IMG/VR virus record: IMGVR_UViG_3300029138_000071
Reading direction: 5' to 3' (one strand)
Length of the DNA stretch: 4,659 nt
Source: a virus
Lineage: Duplodnaviria; Heunggongvirae; Uroviricota; Caudoviricetes
Part shown: one piece after another, positions 1 to 4,250 of the stretch
Position numbering within the stretch: the stretch's first letter is position 1
Layout of the letters: each line of letters begins with the position of its first letter
Notes under the pieces: generated by a model
What the model was told of the DNA's origin: nothing
The model's database searches: none
The model's input: only the letters and a program-made list of their open reading frames with translations
Made by a program: the position numbers and the translations under genes

Positions 1-637
1 CCCCGCCGTGGTGTGGAAGAGGATGTTTACTGGTGGGTGCCGTCCTTCAACGAGCCGACAGCCTTCACGCCCGGCTCCGTGTTTCACCTGCTGGAGCCGG
101 ATATTAATCAGGAGCTGTACGGCCTGCCGGAATATCTCAGCGCCCTTAATTCTGCCTGGCTGAATGAGTCGGCCACGCTGTTTCGCCGCAAGTATTACGA
201 AAACGGCGCACATGCCGGATACATCATGTACGTCACTGATGCCGTGCAGGATCGCAACGATATCGAAATGCTTCGCGAAAACATGGTGAAGTCGAAAGGC
301 CGCAACAACTTTAAAAATCTGTTTCTCTATGCCCCGCAGGGGAAAGCCGACGGCATTAAAATTATCCCGCTCAGTGAAGTGGCAACGAAGGACGATTTTT
401 NNNNNNNNNNNNNNNNNNNNNNNCGCTGACCTGCTGGACGCGCACCGCATCCCCTTTCAGTTGATGGGCGGCAAGCCGGAGAACGTCGGGTCGTTGGGTG
501 ATATTGAGAAAGTGGCAAAGGTCTTTGTCCGCAATGAGCTTATCCCGCTACAGGACAGGATCCGCGAGATAAACGGCTGGCTCGGTCAGGAGGTCATCCG
601 CTTTAAAAACTACTCACTGGACACTGACAACGGCTGA
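1..637 (+). CDS. Q: Phage portal protein (P2 gpQ-like), 5'-partial; reading frame interrupted by the assembly gap at 401-423
   Basis: Frame 1 is open from position 1 to the N-run (ORF track 13..429). After the gap the protein continues in frame 2 (ORF track 329..637) and ends at TGA 635-637. The gene ends about 170 bp before the cos site and points toward it, as Q does in P2. The gap is 23 N, not a multiple of 3, so the frame change is an assembly artefact of unknown true length. Protein identity is inferred from synteny, not from recalled sequence. Confidence 0.8.
401..423. other. Run of 23 N: assembly/scaffold gap inside the portal gene
   Basis: Directly visible as n characters at 401-423. 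Confidence 0.99.
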
Positions 638-825: not shown

Positions 826-1110
826 CGCCCGCTTCACGGGGCGGTTTTAATGCAGTTGCATAGATACTATGGATCCGCACCAGTCCTGACCGCACGCAGC
901 CTGAACGGACATCCCCAACGCATGCAAAAACATTCACTTGTTGCATGCATAGCTTTTTAAGTACGCCATACCGCAACTGTACATTTTTAAGCAATTGGCA
1001 ACTTTAAAAAATTTACATTGCTTTCAAGACCTTATCATCCGTAGTCTCTGTTTTTTACTTTGAGCTACATCAATAAAATCTCAAACATGTTTAATGCAAA
1101 GCCCTTGTTA

Positions 1111-1164
1111 CACAACATAGAATGTATGTCTAGAAACAACGACATACTATATGTTGTGTTTTTC
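1111..1164 (+). terminator. Long imperfect AU-rich hairpin followed by a T-run; candidate intrinsic terminator or structured RNA element
   Basis: Arm cacaacata-gaat-gtatgtc (1111-1130), loop tagaaacaac, arm gacatac-ta-tatgttgtg (1141-1158): 9 bp plus 7 bp of pairing around a small internal loop, then TTTTT (1159-1163). No T-run follows on the minus strand. Confidence 0.4.
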
Positions 1165-1225
1165 CGGCTCTCTGTTCGGTGATATGCCAAATCACTTTGC
1201 GTTTAAACAGAGCATTATTTCAGGG

Positions 1226-1240
1226 CAAGACTTCGCTCAA
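1226..1240 (+). repeat. Direct repeat copy 1 (CAAGACTTCGCTCAA), in the 5' leader of the small ORF
   Basis: Identical 15-mer recurs at 1490-1504; this copy ends 64 nt upstream of the ATG at 1304. Confidence 0.9.
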
Positions 1241-1303
1241 AAGTCATTCCACCTAAGAAGCGCATATACCGGTGGAAGTTGCCCTCTACTTACAGGAGGC
1301 AAT

Positions 1304-1417
1304 ATGAAGAAATGCTATTACTGCATTCTCGTTCTGGCCCTCTTTGGCTATCCAAACGGTAGTCCGAGTGGTTTGTCAGTAAACGTCAGTAATATCAATG
1401 TCAGCATTATGCTTTAA
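1304..1417 (+). CDS. Small hydrophobic protein, 37 aa (MKKCYYCILVLALFGYPNGSPSGLSVNVSNINVSIML); candidate single-pass membrane peptide
   Basis: AGGAGG at 1294-1299, 4 nt before ATG 1304; MKK followed by a 13-residue hydrophobic stretch; stop TAA 1415-1417, then a terminator. The ORF track gives a longer in-frame version from 1151, but that ATG lies inside the hairpin stem and has no SD; an alternative start is ATG 1184. Confidence 0.45.
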   Translation: MKKCYYCILVLALFGYPNGSPSGLSVNVSNINVSIML

Positions 1418-1429
1418 TATGCTTCAAAC

Positions 1430-1459
1430 AAAAAAACCACCTGCCAGGGTGGTTTTTTT
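1430..1459. terminator. Bidirectional rho-independent terminator
   Basis: A-run 1430-1436, stem CCACC (1437-1441), loop TGCCAG, stem GGTGG (1448-1452), T-run 1453-1459. It reads as hairpin plus U-run on both strands, so it can end both the small ORF transcript (+) and the gene A early transcript (-). Confidence 0.8.
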
Positions 1460-1489
1460 GCGCCCATCATCAATACGATGAAAGACTGA

Positions 1490-1504
1490 CAAGACTTCGC
1501 TCAA
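1490..1504 (+). repeat. Direct repeat copy 2 (CAAGACTTCGCTCAA)
   Basis: Identical to 1226-1240. It lies just downstream (on the minus strand) of a promoter-like TTGCGG-17 nt-CATAAT (1538..1533 and 1515..1510). Confidence 0.9.
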
Positions 1505-1612
1505 GACGAATTATGCGTCGACATAAGGTTACCCGCAATGATTTTATTAGACTAAATAGATGGCCTTTTATGACCAGGATCAAACGGCTGTCCTTACCGA
1601 CATGCTAGTCAC

Positions 1613-1650
1613 TCAATAGCATTTAGCCTTCTAATTCAGCATGCTATTGA
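1613..1650. repeat. Perfect 10-bp inverted repeat (TCAATAGCAT / ATGCTATTGA) with an 18-nt spacer
   Basis: 1613-1622 and 1641-1650 are exact reverse complements; no U-run on either side; it lies 37-74 nt beyond the true stop of gene A. Confidence 0.7.
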
Positions 1651-1686
1651 CCTTCTGCTGCCCCATAACTGCTCCGCATAAGCCAT

Positions 1687-3985
1687 TCAATGCCATATCA
1701 AATCACGTTGTATTTTTACTCAAATGGGTAACGAGAACCCCGGCCACTCATCAGCAACCGGATACGTGAATTTTTTCCCGTCATAATTTACGGTCGCGCC
1801 ACGCGCCAGCGCCTCAAGCTCCCATCGTTGCGGCCTGATACCGTTCTGAGCGAGGTCAACGCGGATACGGGTAATTTGCAATCGTTCGACCGGGTCAGTC
1901 TGGCCGACGGTGCTATTTCATGTGGTTTTAACGGGCTTCCGTTTCTTTGCTGACGATTTGGTGTTTTCAGGCCGTGTTTTAATGCATCCCTGAGCGTCCT
2001 CACGACCTCCGGGTCACTCCATTCGATGACACCGTCATCAACCAGATTAAGCACTGCTACGGCGTGCTCAGAGGGTGTGGGAGCCGGTAACGAAGTATCA
2101 CCACCAGTGAGCTTTCCACAGTTATTGACAGGACTCCGAGGCGCGGCGATGCCGCTTTTTAAAGTCAAAGGCTCAACGACCGGAGCTTTCGGCACAATGC
2201 GCCAGTCCGTCGTTCTGGTGATATGAATATGACGCGCGCCGAGATGCGGCGCGTAAATGCCGACCACTCTCTCGACTTCTTCCTCGTACTCGTTAACTTC
2301 ATCCGACGGACTACGGGCGACCCTGACAGTCTGACAATCGCGCGGGACATTTGCCCCACCCTGCGCGCTGATATACAGCGCAAAATCGCCACTGTCTGCG
2401 GCAGCGCGTGCAGCCTCGACGCGTTCGTCAAACTCATCAGCAATGCTGACGCCGCGAGGCAATTTGCGTAGTTCACGGTAAGCCCCCATTGTCGGCAGGC
2501 CAACCGTTTTAAATTGCGGAATGCGCCACGTTGACGCCCATGCGGTAACAGCCGCGGCAGTGTCTTTCAGCGGCCTGCCGGTGTCGTTATCGAGCTGACC
2601 ATCCAGTGCATAGCCATCGATGTTTTTTGAAATGTATTTCGCGATATATCCCGCAGCACCGCCCCGGTTAAGGTGTTTTGCCTGAAAACGGTTTCGCGCG
2701 GCTCCTCTTTCGTCGCCATCCTCTTTGAGCGCATAGCGACGCATGATTTCGATAATCTGGTTACGCTGGCGTGGATTACAAAAAAGCATCATATGCCAGT
2801 GCGGCGTTCCGTCGTGGTGTGGTTCAACAACACGCAAACCGTAGGCCAGTAAATCATTATCCTTGAATGCCGTGCGCATCAGGCTCCAGATACGGCAGAG
2901 ATAACGCTGCGCATCCTTTGGATTAAATGCCTCATCATTCCAGCCGTGACGGTTTTACTTTCGCCTTTTCTGACCTGACGTGTCGGGTGATACTTTGACG
3001 GCGCGGTCAGCGTGATAAACATCCCCACATCACCCTCTGCGGCAGCGTAACGCTCAATACCGGCGATGGTGTTCATCAGCTCCATCCGGCGAATTTCGGG
3101 ATTAGAAATACTGCCCATCACCTTACTGATAAGGTCGATGCGCTCGCCGGTTTCCTTGTTTTCAAGGTCACACGATTTAAGAAATTCCAGATTTGCCTGG
3201 CGGCGCGCACGCACATCACGAATGGCATGTTTACTGGCATAAGGAGAACGGTCTTTATTGACCTCCCCGACAGCAATCAGTAACGCCTCATGCCAGCGCA
3301 TACGCTGGCCTTTAAGCTGATGAGTCCACCACTCATCGTTAAACAGACGGGCAATGGCAGAATATGCCTGCCTCGTGGTCATCTGCCCTTTACGGTATTT
3401 TTTCCAGTAGAGCGGGGAAATATTGAAAGCACGTGCAGCGCCAGCAACATGACCATACAGGTGAGCCTGCGCCTCATCCGTAAACAGCGATTCTTTCTCG
3501 CCATGCGCATCCACCCAGGCATCGCAGAGTTCCTCATACATTATGAAAAGCTGCGATGAGATACGGGCGGCAAACTTTTTCAGCTCCTTGTCATTCATTC
3601 CCGGCAGGCGCGCATAGTGGTCACGCTCTGCCAGAAACAGTAACGACGCGTCGGTGTTCATTTCATGGCGCTGATTCACACGCTCAATGCGCGGCCATAA
3701 ACGCCGCTGAAAAGTGGATGTGAGGAAATAAAACCCGTGCACCGGGCTTTTATTGCGCCGGATGTAGTCATAGCGTGAAGTAAACAGCGAGCGCAAAAAG
3801 TAAGGCAGGCGGTTAATCGTGGATAAAACACCTTGCACCTGACGCATCTCGTCACGTGTAAGGGGTCTTTCGCGCCCGACAGCCTCGCGTGGCGCGTTCC
3901 ATGCATAAGCACCGGTAAACGTCTTACCGGTGCCTGCGGCAAATGCTGACGGAGGGACAAAACGCCCGGAGGCTTTAACGGCCAT
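1687..3985 (-). pseudogene. A: Replication initiation protein gpA (rolling-circle HUH endonuclease, P2 gene A), interrupted by two frameshifts
   Basis: The gene reads as three frame segments: 3985..2879 (N-terminus MAVKASGRFVPP, motif FITLTAP), 2879..1788 (HUH motif PHWHMMLF, tyrosine motif YIAKYISKNIDGY) and about 1887..1687 (ERLQITRIRVDLAQNGIRPQRWELEALARGATVNYDGKKFTYPVADEWPGFS...). The frame changes between codons KTV and HGWNDEAF near 2945-2950 (consistent with a roughly 10-nt deletion relative to my recollection of P2 A) and between RLTRS and ERLQ at 1886/1887 (consistent with a 1-nt deletion). The ORF track's ATG at 4027 is an in-frame upstream alternative start, but it overlaps the preceding gene. 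The final stop is TGA 1689..1687. Confidence 0.85.
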
Positions 3986-4250
3986 ATGAGCCAAAAGCCT
4001 CTGAACAACGCCTGCTGAGTTGCTCAACCTGCGCGTTTAAATCAGCAAAAGACTTTGCGCTTCCGGTCAGAATATCGTGATGCATCATGCCGGAAACGAG
4101 CTGGCTTAATTTCGGGTAATAACCAACCACCGCCAGCCATTCCTGACCGGCGTTTTTACCGCTTTCAGCTCTCTTTTTCTCGTGGAGAATAAACTGAAAG
4201 CTGTCACTGGTAACGACATAACGTTCGCCAATTTCAATACGAATACTCAT
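3975..4250 (-). CDS. Hypothetical early-operon protein (P2 Orf83-like position), 91 aa
   Basis: ORF 4250..3975 with a GGAG SD about 7 nt upstream; its ATG overlaps the upstream gene stop (ATGA at 4250-4247), and its 3' end overlaps the A start by 11 nt. Operon context only; no recognisable domain. Confidence 0.7.
   Translation of the reverse strand: MSIRIEIGERYVVTSDSFQFILHEKKRAESGKNAGQEWLAVVGYYPKLSQLVSGMMHHDILTGSAKSFADLNAQVEQLSRRCSEAFGSYGR

What the first reader, a model, noticed from the sequence alone, without database searches (positions are those of the whole stretch)
1226..1540. 15-nt perfect direct repeat sets up potential antisense pairing between the small ORF leader and a convergent minus-strand transcript
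CAAGACTTCGCTCAA occurs at 1226-1240 (64 nt before the small ORF ATG) and again at 1490-1504, beyond the bidirectional terminator. Any minus-strand RNA crossing 1504..1490 would be perfectly complementary to the plus-strand leader over 15 nt. Such RNA could come from a weak promoter-like TTGCGG-17-CATAAT at 1538..1510 or from read-through of the gene A transcript ending at the bidirectional terminator. This layout resembles trans-encoded antitoxin sRNAs of type I systems (zorO/orzO, tisB/istR-1, shoB/ohsC). An exact 15-mer recurring within 300 bp is unlikely by chance.
Basis: partly seen in the sequence, partly recalled or inferred. Interest (0 to 1): 0.65.

Follow-up and report, generated by a model that had tools for sequence, protein, structure and literature searches.

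The report
Unannotated small-ORF and antisense sRNA module
The 15-base repeat is the pairing site between a 37-codon gene's mRNA leader and a convergent ~75-nt antisense RNA, together forming an unannotated, probably toxin-antitoxin-like module that travels on P2 prophages, several hundred IncF plasmids, an N15-like phage and a Salmonella chromosome.

Summary
In detail: CAAGACTTCGCTCAA occurs exactly at 1226-1240 and 1490-1504 (0 of 200 shuffles). The repeat lies inside a ~530-nt module (about 1050-1583) found in P2-like prophages (152 of 5,426 E. coli genomes), 423 plasmid records (mostly Klebsiella IncF), an N15-like phage and a Salmonella chromosome, unannotated in the records inspected. 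Across 13 haplotypes the two copies keep 14-17 contiguous base pairs when read as plus-strand mRNA and minus-strand RNA. Two diverged plasmid lineages carry the same three substitutions in both copies, and every one-sided change in the core gives G.U, never A.C. The minus strand has a promoter footprint (TTGCGG, scrambled 17-18-nt spacer, invariant CATAAT), with the seed starting 7 nt after the -10. A central hairpin has 6 of 8 pairs compensated, and the intrinsic terminator is shared with the ORF. The ORF is under purifying selection (median dN/dS 0.23). Its promoter is homologous to host nrdDG (FNR and NrdR boxes). The closest architecture is par(pAD1) RNA I/RNA II. The module looks like a new family of a known kind.

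The parts
1060..1073 (+). FNR-2-like box TTGAGCTACATCAA of an nrdDG-like promoter
   Evidence: One mismatch to TTGAT-N4-ATCAA. Aligned with the treC-nrdD intergenic region of E. coli and Salmonella. Kept in all module lineages. 5,424 of 5,426 E. coli genomes match window 1052-1105, which is their nrdD promoter.
1091..1104 (+). FNR-1-like box, degenerate in this window (TTAATGCAAAGCCC); relatives have TTGATGCAAATCAC
   Evidence: Alignments.
1110..1125 (+). NrdR-box-like palindrome 1 (ACACAACATAGAATGT), overlapping the -10 TAGAAT at 1118-1123
   Evidence: Inverted repeat I10. The -10 aligns with TAAAAT of nrdD. NrdR boxes are 16-bp palindromes with a 15-16 bp linker (PMC12176259).
1144..1159 (+). 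NrdR-box-like palindrome 2 (ATACTATATGTTGTGT); the linker is 18 bp here and 16 bp in type B/C/D relatives
   Evidence: Aligns with nrdDG box 2 ACCCAATATGTTGTAT. Conserved.
1130..1461 (+). Predicted small-ORF mRNA (~330 nt). The 5' end is inferred from homology to the nrdD promoter and the 3' end lies at the terminator T-run.
   Evidence: Inference. Not mapped experimentally.
1170..1212 (+). Leader stem-loop SL1 (CUCUGUU...AACAGAG with inner GGUGAU/AUCACU)
   Evidence: RNAalifold finds 3 compensatory pairs. Fully compensated in L073: CCCGGA/UCCGGG and GUGCU/AGCAC.
1224..1240 (+). Target site on the mRNA leader: copy 1 of the repeat (1226-1240) plus two flanking G, forming a 17-bp duplex with the sRNA 5' end
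   Evidence: More accessible than the mRNA average.
1247..1277 (+). Leader stem-loop SL2 with conserved loop GAAGCGCA(U/G)AUA
   Evidence: 2 compensatory pairs. CCACC/GGUGG becomes CCGCC/GGCGG and CCUUCAG/CUGAAGG in L057.
1279..1299 (+). Anti-SD strand UUGCCCUCU (1279-1287) and SD AGGAGG (1294-1299), forming the SD-sequestering hairpin SL3. The anti-SD can pair with copy 1's 5' flank instead.
   Evidence: predicted only.
1304..1417 (+). 37-codon ORF MKKCYYCILVLALFGYPNGSPSGLSVNVSNINVSIML (candidate toxin)
   Evidence: Length fixed at 37 codons, median dN/dS 0.23. No Pfam, NCBIfam, PHROG or PADLOC family.
1429..1460 (.). Bidirectional intrinsic terminator shared by the mRNA and the sRNA
   Evidence: I2. 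Nearly invariant in all lineages.
1428..1503 (-). Predicted antisense sRNA (~75 nt): 5' seed (1504/1503..1488), central hairpin (1486..1462), terminator
   Evidence: Folds with z -3.6 to -4.5. Covariance model hits of 65-103 bits on this strand in all lineages. Hairpin has 6 of 8 pairs compensated. The minus strand is favoured, -83.4 vs -53.3 kcal/mol.
1488..1504 (-). sRNA seed: reverse complement of copy 2 of the repeat (1490-1504) plus two flanking bases
1510..1538 (-). sRNA promoter: -10 CATAAT (1515..1510), 17-nt spacer, -35 TTGCGG (1538..1533). A TAATAAA UP-like element lies at 1549..1542.
   Evidence: Phylogenetic footprint in 11 representative loci (the L042 row was mis-anchored; its promoter was read by eye): hexamers kept, spacer scrambled.
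1570..1583 (.). Conserved FNR/CRP-like palindrome ATGACCAGGATCAA, about 73 bp upstream of the predicted sRNA start. It marks the right edge of the conserved module.
   Evidence: ATGAT-N4-ATCAA in L057. Function inferred only.

Best explanation
The two 15-nt copies are the two halves of an RNA-RNA pairing site inside a compact, self-contained two-gene module (about 1050-1583). On the + strand, a promoter homologous to the host nrdDG promoter (FNR boxes, NrdR-box-like palindromes) drives a ~330-nt mRNA. Its ~174-nt structured leader sequesters the Shine-Dalgarno sequence, and it encodes a conserved 37-aa protein with an N-terminal hydrophobic segment. On the - strand, a sigma-70 promoter (TTGCGG-17-CATAAT) drives a ~75-nt sRNA whose first 14-17 nt are complementary to the leader 64-80 nt upstream of the AUG. 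A hairpin follows, then the intrinsic terminator that both transcripts share. I infer that the sRNA represses the small protein post-transcriptionally. It would do so by occupying the accessible stretch between leader stems SL1 and SL2, with occlusion of a standby or entry site and/or RNase III cleavage. It may also free the anti-SD strand, which otherwise pairs with the 5' flank of the target. I further infer that the protein is a membrane-active toxin, so that the pair behaves as a type I toxin-antitoxin or addiction module on mobile elements. Shown in silico: the repeat, its co-evolution, the sRNA gene anatomy, coding selection and the promoter homology. Inferred: transcription, the direction of regulation, toxicity and FNR/NrdR control.
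For: The repeat is exact and non-random. The module is conserved in 5 lineages at 68-78% mutual identity plus two more-diverged class II plasmid lineages, and it sits on P2 prophages, IncF plasmids, an N15-like phage and a chromosome. The duplex keeps 14-17 contiguous bp in all 13 haplotypes. It shows 94.6% paired cells against 29-42% when slid, three pairs changed on both sides, and a covariation score and double-change cell count reached by 0 of 500 shuffles. Class II lineages L073 and L076 have TAAGGCTTTGCTCA in both copies. One-sided core changes are all G.U in the (+)mRNA:(-)sRNA orientation. The sRNA promoter footprint holds, and the seed starts 7 nt after the -10. The sRNA folds with z -3.6 to -4.5. 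The covariance model scores 65-103 bits on the predicted strand against ~24 bits on the other. The central hairpin has 6 of 8 pairs compensated and is more stable on the minus strand. Leader stems covary and the SD is sequestered. The ORF has dN/dS 0.23 and a fixed length. nrdD promoter homology is clear. The par(pAD1) architecture is described in PMC7472228. All three decayed copies lose the ORF.
Against: There is no transcript, 5'-end or interaction data. The one relevant dataset I could reach (K. pneumoniae MGH 78578) does not contain the module on pKPN3. Toxicity is untested, and the hydrophobic stretch is short (~13 aa) with an uncharged polar tail, unlike most type I toxins. The two class II lineages are related, so the three double changes may reflect one ancestral lineage. 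In-silico blocking of the target did not change SD accessibility consistently. The -35 is weak (3-4 of 6), and the generic promoter scan did not call it. The covariance-model alignment is fitted to the model structure.
Confidence: 0.7

Rival explanations
1. The sRNA is real, but its main targets are host or competing-phage mRNAs. The match in the adjacent leader would then be a secondary autoregulatory or sponge site, and the small protein would not be a toxin. It could be, for example, an anaerobically induced small membrane regulator.
For: The sRNA has a typical trans-acting layout of 5' seed, hairpin and U-rich terminator. The peptide lacks the charged tail usual in type I toxins and matches no toxin family. 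The nrdDG-like promoter suggests physiological, not stochastic, expression.
Against: The seed and the cis-linked target co-evolve across hosts and replicons, which points to the linked leader as the selected partner. The module moves as a unit among unrelated mobile elements. Decayed copies lose the ORF.
Confidence: 0.15
2. The two copies are duplicate DNA binding sites for a protein such as a host regulator, and the RNA complementarity is incidental.
For: Both copies are conserved DNA motifs near promoters. The finding itself raised this alternative.
Against: The module encodes no DNA-binding protein. Sites for a host factor would not acquire the same three substitutions in both copies. One-sided changes are restricted to the copy and direction that give G.U in an RNA duplex, an asymmetry that has no meaning for DNA sites. 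Copy 2 lies at +1 to +15 of a footprinted promoter with a covarying RNA hairpin downstream.
Confidence: 0.04
3. The repeat is a passive scar, either a target-site duplication or a recombination junction left by insertion of the ORF-terminator cassette.
For: The repeats flank the ORF and terminator directly. One plasmid (L075) has a single hybrid copy with the 264-nt interval missing, which could be read as an empty site.
Against: Scars would diverge independently. Here the copies stay complementary over 68-78% module divergence and change in concert. L075 keeps the ORF's promoter and leader but no ORF, which fits a secondary deletion by recombination between the repeats. It is rare: 388 of 423 plasmid hits are near full length.
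Confidence: 0.03
4. Only the plus strand matters at copy 2. The region CTGACA-17-AATTAT (1486-1514) would be an outward-facing plus-strand promoter, and the conservation would reflect that.
For: It is the only promoter-like site called by the generic scan. Its -10 overlaps the invariant ATTATG.
Against: Its -35 varies (CTGACA, CTAGCA, CTGGCA), and nothing conserved lies downstream, since homology among lineages ends at ~1583. It explains neither the covarying hairpin between the terminator and copy 2, nor the G.U strand bias, nor the concerted change of copy 1.
Confidence: 0.03

Closest known systems
par(pAD1) Fst / RNA I - RNA II type I toxin-antitoxin system of Enterococcus faecalis and its par-like relatives
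   Same: Both have convergent promoters and a shared bidirectional intrinsic terminator that makes the 3' ends complementary. Both have direct DNA repeats transcribed in opposite directions, which provide a second, 5'-proximal complementarity. Both have an intramolecular stem-loop that sequesters the toxin's SD, a short antitoxin RNA (~65-75 nt), and carriage on mobile elements (PMC7472228).
   Different: This module has one repeat rather than DRa plus DRb. The target lies 64-80 nt upstream of the AUG and not over the translation initiation region. The peptide is unrelated to Fst/Ldr, with no Pfam hit. The hosts are Enterobacteriaceae. The toxin promoter is derived from nrdDG.
tisB/istR-1, zorO/orzO and shoB/ohsC (enterobacterial type I systems with trans-encoded sRNAs)
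   Same: All use a short stretch of complementarity (roughly 18-21 nt, from my own knowledge) created by a repeated sequence. The sRNA 5' end pairs far upstream of a structurally sequestered RBS in a long leader. The proposed mode of action, standby-site occlusion and/or RNase III cleavage, follows tisB/istR-1.
   Different: Those loci are divergent, with the sRNA gene upstream, whereas this one is convergent with a shared terminator. There is no sequence or Rfam relationship: OrzO-P scores 21 bits against a gathering score of 60, driven by the terminator only. Expression appears to run from an FNR/NrdR-type promoter rather than LexA control.
E. coli / Salmonella nrdDG promoter (FNR-activated, NrdR-repressed)
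   Same: Window ~1003-1165 aligns with the treC-nrdD intergenic region. The alignment includes the FNR-2 box, the FNR-1 half-site, the -10 and the second NrdR box.
   Different: It drives a 37-codon ORF rather than ribonucleotide reductase. In this window's lineage the FNR-1 box is degenerate and the NrdR-box linker is 18 bp, against 15-16 bp normally. Homology stops at ~1165.

Membership tests
Type I toxin-antitoxin system (general definition) | Small (<60 aa) hydrophobic protein-coding gene | tested here: met
   The ORF is 37 aa with a basic N-terminus followed by CYYCILVLALFGY. Its length is fixed across lineages and median dN/dS is 0.23.
Type I toxin-antitoxin system (general definition) | Antisense RNA gene whose product base-pairs with the toxin mRNA | tested here: met
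   In silico only. The duplex is 14-17 bp in 13 haplotypes with covariation. The sRNA gene has a promoter footprint, a covarying hairpin and a terminator.
Type I toxin-antitoxin system (general definition) | The protein is toxic when expressed, and the RNA neutralises it | not testable with these tools
   There is only an indirect hint: the three decayed copies found all lose the ORF.
Type I toxin-antitoxin system (general definition) | The toxin mRNA folds to sequester its Shine-Dalgarno sequence | tested here: met
   Predicted: the anti-SD/SD hairpin appears in the RNAalifold consensus, and SD unpaired probability is 0.06-0.29 against an mRNA mean of ~0.36.
par(pAD1)-like loci (Fst/RNA II) | Convergent promoters with a shared bidirectional intrinsic terminator | tested here: met
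   Terminator at 1429-1460. The plus promoter is inferred by homology to nrdD and the minus promoter by footprint.
par(pAD1)-like loci (Fst/RNA II) | Direct repeats transcribed in opposite directions that overlap the toxin's translation initiation region | tested here: not met
   A single repeat is present, and its target copy lies 64-80 nt upstream of the AUG rather than over the SD/AUG.
par(pAD1)-like loci (Fst/RNA II) | The toxin belongs to the Fst/Ldr superfamily | tested here: not met
   No Pfam or NCBIfam family matches at E<=10. The tail is uncharged and polar.
zorO/orzO, tisB/istR-1, shoB/ohsC | Divergently transcribed sRNA gene upstream of the toxin gene | tested here: not met
   The sRNA gene is downstream and convergent.
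zorO/orzO, tisB/istR-1, shoB/ohsC | Sequence or structure homology to the known sRNA families | tested here: not met
   No Rfam family reaches its gathering score in the window or in four homologous loci. OrzO-P scores 21 bits against 60.
nrdDG-type promoter | Sequence homology with FNR boxes at conserved spacing | tested here: met
   FNR-2 has one mismatch. FNR-1 is degenerate in this window but is TTGATGCAAATCAC in relatives.
nrdDG-type promoter | Two 16-bp NrdR boxes separated by 15-16 bp | tested here: inconclusive
   Box-like palindromes lie at 1110-1125 and 1144-1159 with an 18-bp linker here, 16 bp in type B/C/D and L057, and ~26 bp in L048/L058. Binding was not tested.

The most novel reading that the evidence does not exclude
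A previously undescribed, widely mobile type I toxin-antitoxin family in Enterobacteriaceae whose toxin gene has captured the host nrdDG promoter. On this reading the small membrane protein is made only when oxygen is low (FNR) and/or the dATP signal sensed by NrdR falls, for example during replication stress or phage infection. A constitutive or FNR-assisted sRNA holds it in check by sequestering an SD-mimic in the leader. In the P2 gpA-gpQ defence hotspot and on Klebsiella resistance plasmids it would act as a nucleotide- and oxygen-sensing abortive-infection or addiction device. Its two natural seed classes would be orthogonal.
Probability: 0.25. Interest if true: 0.8.

Novelty: new member of a known kind. 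Interest (0 to 1): 0.62.

Why it matters
If the prediction holds, an unannotated 530-bp locus carried by about 3% of complete E. coli genomes, through P2-like prophages, and by several hundred mostly Klebsiella IncF plasmids encodes a regulatory RNA and a small protein that current pipelines miss. The locus sits in the P2 gpA-gpQ interval, which is known as a reservoir of anti-phage systems (PMC9122126). It would therefore be a candidate minimal defence or addiction module. It would extend the par(pAD1)-type convergent, direct-repeat architecture to Gram-negative bacteria. It would supply a natural pair of orthogonal seed/target classes for testing sRNA specificity. It would also link type I toxin expression to the FNR/NrdR (oxygen and dNTP) regulatory inputs of ribonucleotide reductase, which I did not find described in the searchable literature.

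Tried and rejected
- Rfam on the window (E-value mode) and on four homologous loci (gathering mode) gave only sub-threshold hits driven by the terminator, plus an unrelated CopA RNA on L048.
- Pfam, NCBIfam, PHROGs and PADLOC on the peptides found no family.
- The protein search found only 4 clusters, because the ORF is rarely called by gene finders.
- The first genome-contig scan, with an ORF seed, found nothing.
- The repeat-pair scan gave 5 hits, of which 4 were unrelated tandem coding repeats (Kibdelosporangium, two Bacteroidales-order MAGs (one Muribaculaceae), Salinimicrobium). Only L042 was a true homolog.
- I hoped for direct transcript evidence from the K. pneumoniae MGH 78578 dRNA-seq, RIP-seq and RIL-seq study. 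I fetched all of pKPN3, but the module is absent, and the seed is absent from the paper's supplements.
- The 88-aa in-frame extension of the ORF (1151-1417) was rejected because relatives have a TAG directly after copy 1.
- An attenuator or leader-peptide reading was rejected because no conserved downstream plus-strand gene exists.
- The in-silico test of the SD-mimic switch, blocking the target and measuring SD accessibility, gave no consistent shift, and my SD regex mis-hit in two lineages. The switch is kept only as a possibility.
- The literature searches found no paper containing the peptide or the seed, none describing an FNR/NrdR-controlled type I system, and not the older P2 'TO region' papers.
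Full report
**1. The observation**

CAAGACTTCGCTCAA occurs at 1226-1240 and 1490-1504 on the + strand and nowhere else, even with two mismatches allowed. The chance expectation is 0.01, and 0 of 200 shuffles give two matches (family D2). They are a 37-codon ORF at 1304-1417 behind AGGAGG, a perfect 13-nt-arm bidirectional terminator at 1429-1460 (I2), and TTGCGG-17-CATAAT on the minus strand at 1538..1510.

**2. Setting**

The window is a P2-like (Peduovirus) prophage. It contains the portal gpQ C-terminus (13-637), the cos region, cargo, and then replication gene A on the minus strand. The finding lies in the gpQ-gpA interval, the known P2 hotspot for anti-phage cargo (PMC9122126). Similarity to generic P2 phages resumes only at ~1733.

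**3. The repeat belongs to a mobile ~530-nt module, not to P2**

Near-identical and ~86%-identical copies occur in 149-152 of 5,426 complete E. coli genomes and in three phage records.

I searched with seeds that do not include the repeat: an ORF segment, a back-translated peptide core, and the terminator. These recovered progressively diverged homologs:

| Locus | Source |
|---|---|
| L048 | Metagenomic IncFII contig |
| L058 | Salmonella chromosomal lineage (P0003, seen on 72+ contigs) |
| L057 | N15/phiKO2-type linear plasmid-prophage (protelomerase, Toprim RepA, CI-like repressor) |
| — | 423 plasmid records, 388 near full length, mostly conjugative Klebsiella IncFIB/IncFII plasmids |
| L073, L076 | Two strongly diverged lineages on Salmonella and Leclercia IncF plasmids |

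Five lineages are 68-78% identical to each other, and homology among them is confined to about 1050-1583. Apart from 'hypothetical protein' calls in three records, the module carries no annotation in the records inspected. No Rfam family reaches its gathering score. The peptide has no Pfam, NCBIfam, PHROG or PADLOC family. No paper in the library contains the peptide or the seed.

**4. The two copies co-evolve as an RNA duplex**

I found 13 distinct (copy 1, copy 2) haplotypes. Read as plus-strand RNA for copy 1 and minus-strand RNA for copy 2, all of them keep 14-17 contiguous base pairs.

- *Concerted changes.* The Salmonella and Leclercia plasmid lineages carry TAAGGCTTTGCTCA in both copies, in place of CAAGACTTCGCTCA. 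That is three concerted substitutions.
- *Intermediates.* At two of those three positions, other lineages show the change in copy 1 only (C to U in L069; A to G in L048, L058 and L057). These give U.G and G.U.
- *Flanking positions.* The two flanking positions vary only in copy 2 (GA, AG or GG) opposite a constant GG. This gives C or U opposite G.
- *Direction.* No one-sided change of the kind that would produce A.C is seen. Only half of all possible transitions, and no transversions, are tolerated by such a duplex, and every core change observed falls in the tolerated class.

The pair-counting tool gives 94.6% paired cells, against 29-42% when the partner is slid. Three pairs have changes on both sides. 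Six cells carry a double change and the covariation score is 0.161 against 0.122±0.013, and 0 of 500 shuffles reach either value.

One caveat applies. The two class II lineages are related, so the three double changes may stem from a single ancestral lineage.

**5. There is a well-formed sRNA gene on the minus strand**

- *Promoter footprint.* Across the lineages the -35 is TTGC(G/C)N. The 17-18-nt spacer is completely scrambled. The -10 CATAAT is invariant. A 6-nt discriminator varies, and the seed begins exactly 7 nt after the -10. A TAATAAA element sits upstream (L042's promoter was read by eye because the script anchored on an upstream CATAAT). Identity between the repeat copies ends at the predicted transcription start.
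- *Fold.* Each lineage's ~75-nt RNA folds as seed, central hairpin and terminator, with z-scores of -3.6 to -4.5.
- *Hairpin.* The central hairpin has seven different sequences at the same position. It is significant in 8 of 9 lineages. Summed energy is -83.4 kcal/mol on the minus strand against -53.3 on the plus strand, because of 11 G.U pairs.
- *Covariance model.* A model built from eight sequences finds the RNA on the predicted strand in every lineage at 65-103 bits. That includes class II lineages not used to build it. The opposite strand scores about 24 bits, from the terminator alone.
- *Pair counts.* On the model-based alignment, 6 of 8 hairpin pairs show compensatory changes, 31 cells carry a double change (0 of 500 shuffles), and the covariation score is 0.316 against 0.166±0.016. 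This alignment is fitted to the model, so it leans towards the structure.

**6. The plus-strand gene**

The ORF keeps 37 codons (39 in class II), and median dN/dS is 0.23 over 19 lineage pairs.

The leader has three stems:

- SL1 has 3 compensatory pairs and is fully recompensated in L073.
- SL2 has 2 compensatory pairs and a conserved loop.
- SL3 sequesters the SD.

The target lies between SL1 and SL2. It is more accessible (0.47-0.61 unpaired) than the mRNA average (~0.36), while the SD is at 0.06-0.29. RNAduplex places the best sRNA site at copy 1 in all seven haplotypes tested.

The 5' flank of the target (AGGGCAA, GGUGGCA or GGUGGUA) is predicted to pair with the anti-SD strand (UUGCCCU, UGCCGCC or UGCCACC), and this stem covaries. 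Blocking the target lets the full anti-SD:SD helix form in four lineages, but the accessibility change is not consistent. I therefore treat an SD-mimic switch as plausible and not as shown.

**7. The ORF's promoter is a copy of the host nrdDG promoter**

Window ~1003-1165 aligns with the treC-nrdD intergenic region. 5,424 of 5,426 E. coli genomes match 1052-1105 at about 85-89% identity. The shared elements are the FNR-2 box (1060-1073, one mismatch), the FNR-1 box (degenerate here, TTGATGCAAATCAC in relatives), the -10, and NrdR-box-like palindromes.

nrdDG is FNR-activated and NrdR-repressed (PMC2892513; PMC12176259). The published FNR positions of -64.5 and -33.5 are from my own memory of Roca et al. 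2008. They place the mRNA start near 1130. Regulation by FNR and NrdR is an inference.

**8. Mechanism and comparison**

The layout is convergent promoters, a shared bidirectional terminator, a direct repeat transcribed in both directions, and an SD-sequestering stem. This is the architecture of par(pAD1) RNA I/RNA II (PMC7472228). The position of the target, far upstream of a sequestered RBS, resembles tisB/istR-1.

The module fails membership of both groups. For the par group, there is a single repeat that does not overlap the initiation region, and the peptide is not Fst/Ldr. For the zor, tis and sho group, the locus is convergent rather than divergent and there is no Rfam homology.

I conclude that it is a new family of type I toxin-antitoxin-like module. 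Toxicity is unproven. The only hint is that all three decayed copies found lose the ORF:

- L075 was deleted by recombination between the two repeats.
- L066 has an 86-nt microhomology deletion.
- L074 is truncated by an IS element.

**9. Rivals**

Duplicate protein-binding sites, a passive insertion scar and a plus-strand promoter at copy 2 each fail to explain three things: the concerted change of both copies, the strand-specific wobble pattern, and the covarying hairpin. The most credible alternative is that the sRNA is real but the protein is not a toxin, or that the sRNA's main targets lie elsewhere.

**10. Verdict**

Confidence is about 0.85 that the pairing is a selected function, about 0.8 that the sRNA gene is real, and about 0.5 that the protein is a toxin.

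Noticed in passing
window 1003-1165: The region upstream of the small ORF is homologous to the chromosomal nrdDG promoter (treC-nrdD intergenic region). It includes FNR boxes, the -10 and NrdR-box-like palindromes, and every E. coli genome matches 1052-1105. In this window's lineage the FNR-1 box is degenerate and a 2-nt insertion makes the NrdR-box linker 18 bp, against 16 bp in type B/C/D relatives.
   Followed up: yes
window 2948/2949 (gene A, minus strand 4027..1788): A 10-bp deletion (ATTAAGCTGA) relative to E. coli M15 splits the replication endonuclease gene A into two ORFs, 2879-4027 and 1788-2879. The prophage is probably replication-defective, unless this is an assembly error.
   Followed up: partly
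window 401-423: A run of 23 N inside the portal (gpQ) coding sequence, i.e. an assembly gap or masked stretch.
   Followed up: no
window 1570-1583: A conserved FNR/CRP-like palindrome, ATGACCAGGATCAA (ATGAT-N4-ATCAA in L057), lies about 73 bp upstream of the predicted sRNA start. It is present in all lineages and marks the edge of the conserved module. It may mean the sRNA is co-regulated with the ORF.
   Followed up: partly
window 1584-1733: A stretch shared by the P2-borne type A and B modules but not by the plasmid or chromosomal lineages. It contains a 10-nt perfect inverted repeat (1613-1622 / 1641-1650) and no conserved ORF. No function is assigned.
   Followed up: no
L075 (K. pneumoniae plasmid NZ_CP069863) ~979; L066 (Salmonella GCA_023560395.1) 3001-3177: Two natural decay products. 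L075 has a single hybrid repeat copy, with the ORF and terminator deleted by recombination between the two repeats. L066 has an 86-nt deletion between GCCAG microhomologies that fuses the ORF to the terminator's 3' half (annotated as a 58-aa hypothetical protein).
   Followed up: yes
L057 (IMGVR_UViG_3300011594_000020) 5464-6276; L048 6427-6517: In L057 the module sits between the Toprim RepA-like gene and the protelomerase gene of an N15/phiKO2-type linear plasmid-prophage. L048 carries an IncFII CopA RNA (98.8 bits). The same module therefore rides on very different replicons.
   Followed up: partly
L003, L004, L005 (loci 600-1130): In the ~86%-identity P2 relatives (including phage P2 DC1 and Salmonella phage MET_P1_103_31) the hotspot holds extra cargo on the cos side of the module: an ImmA/IrrE-family metallopeptidase gene and a hypothetical gene.
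   Followed up: no
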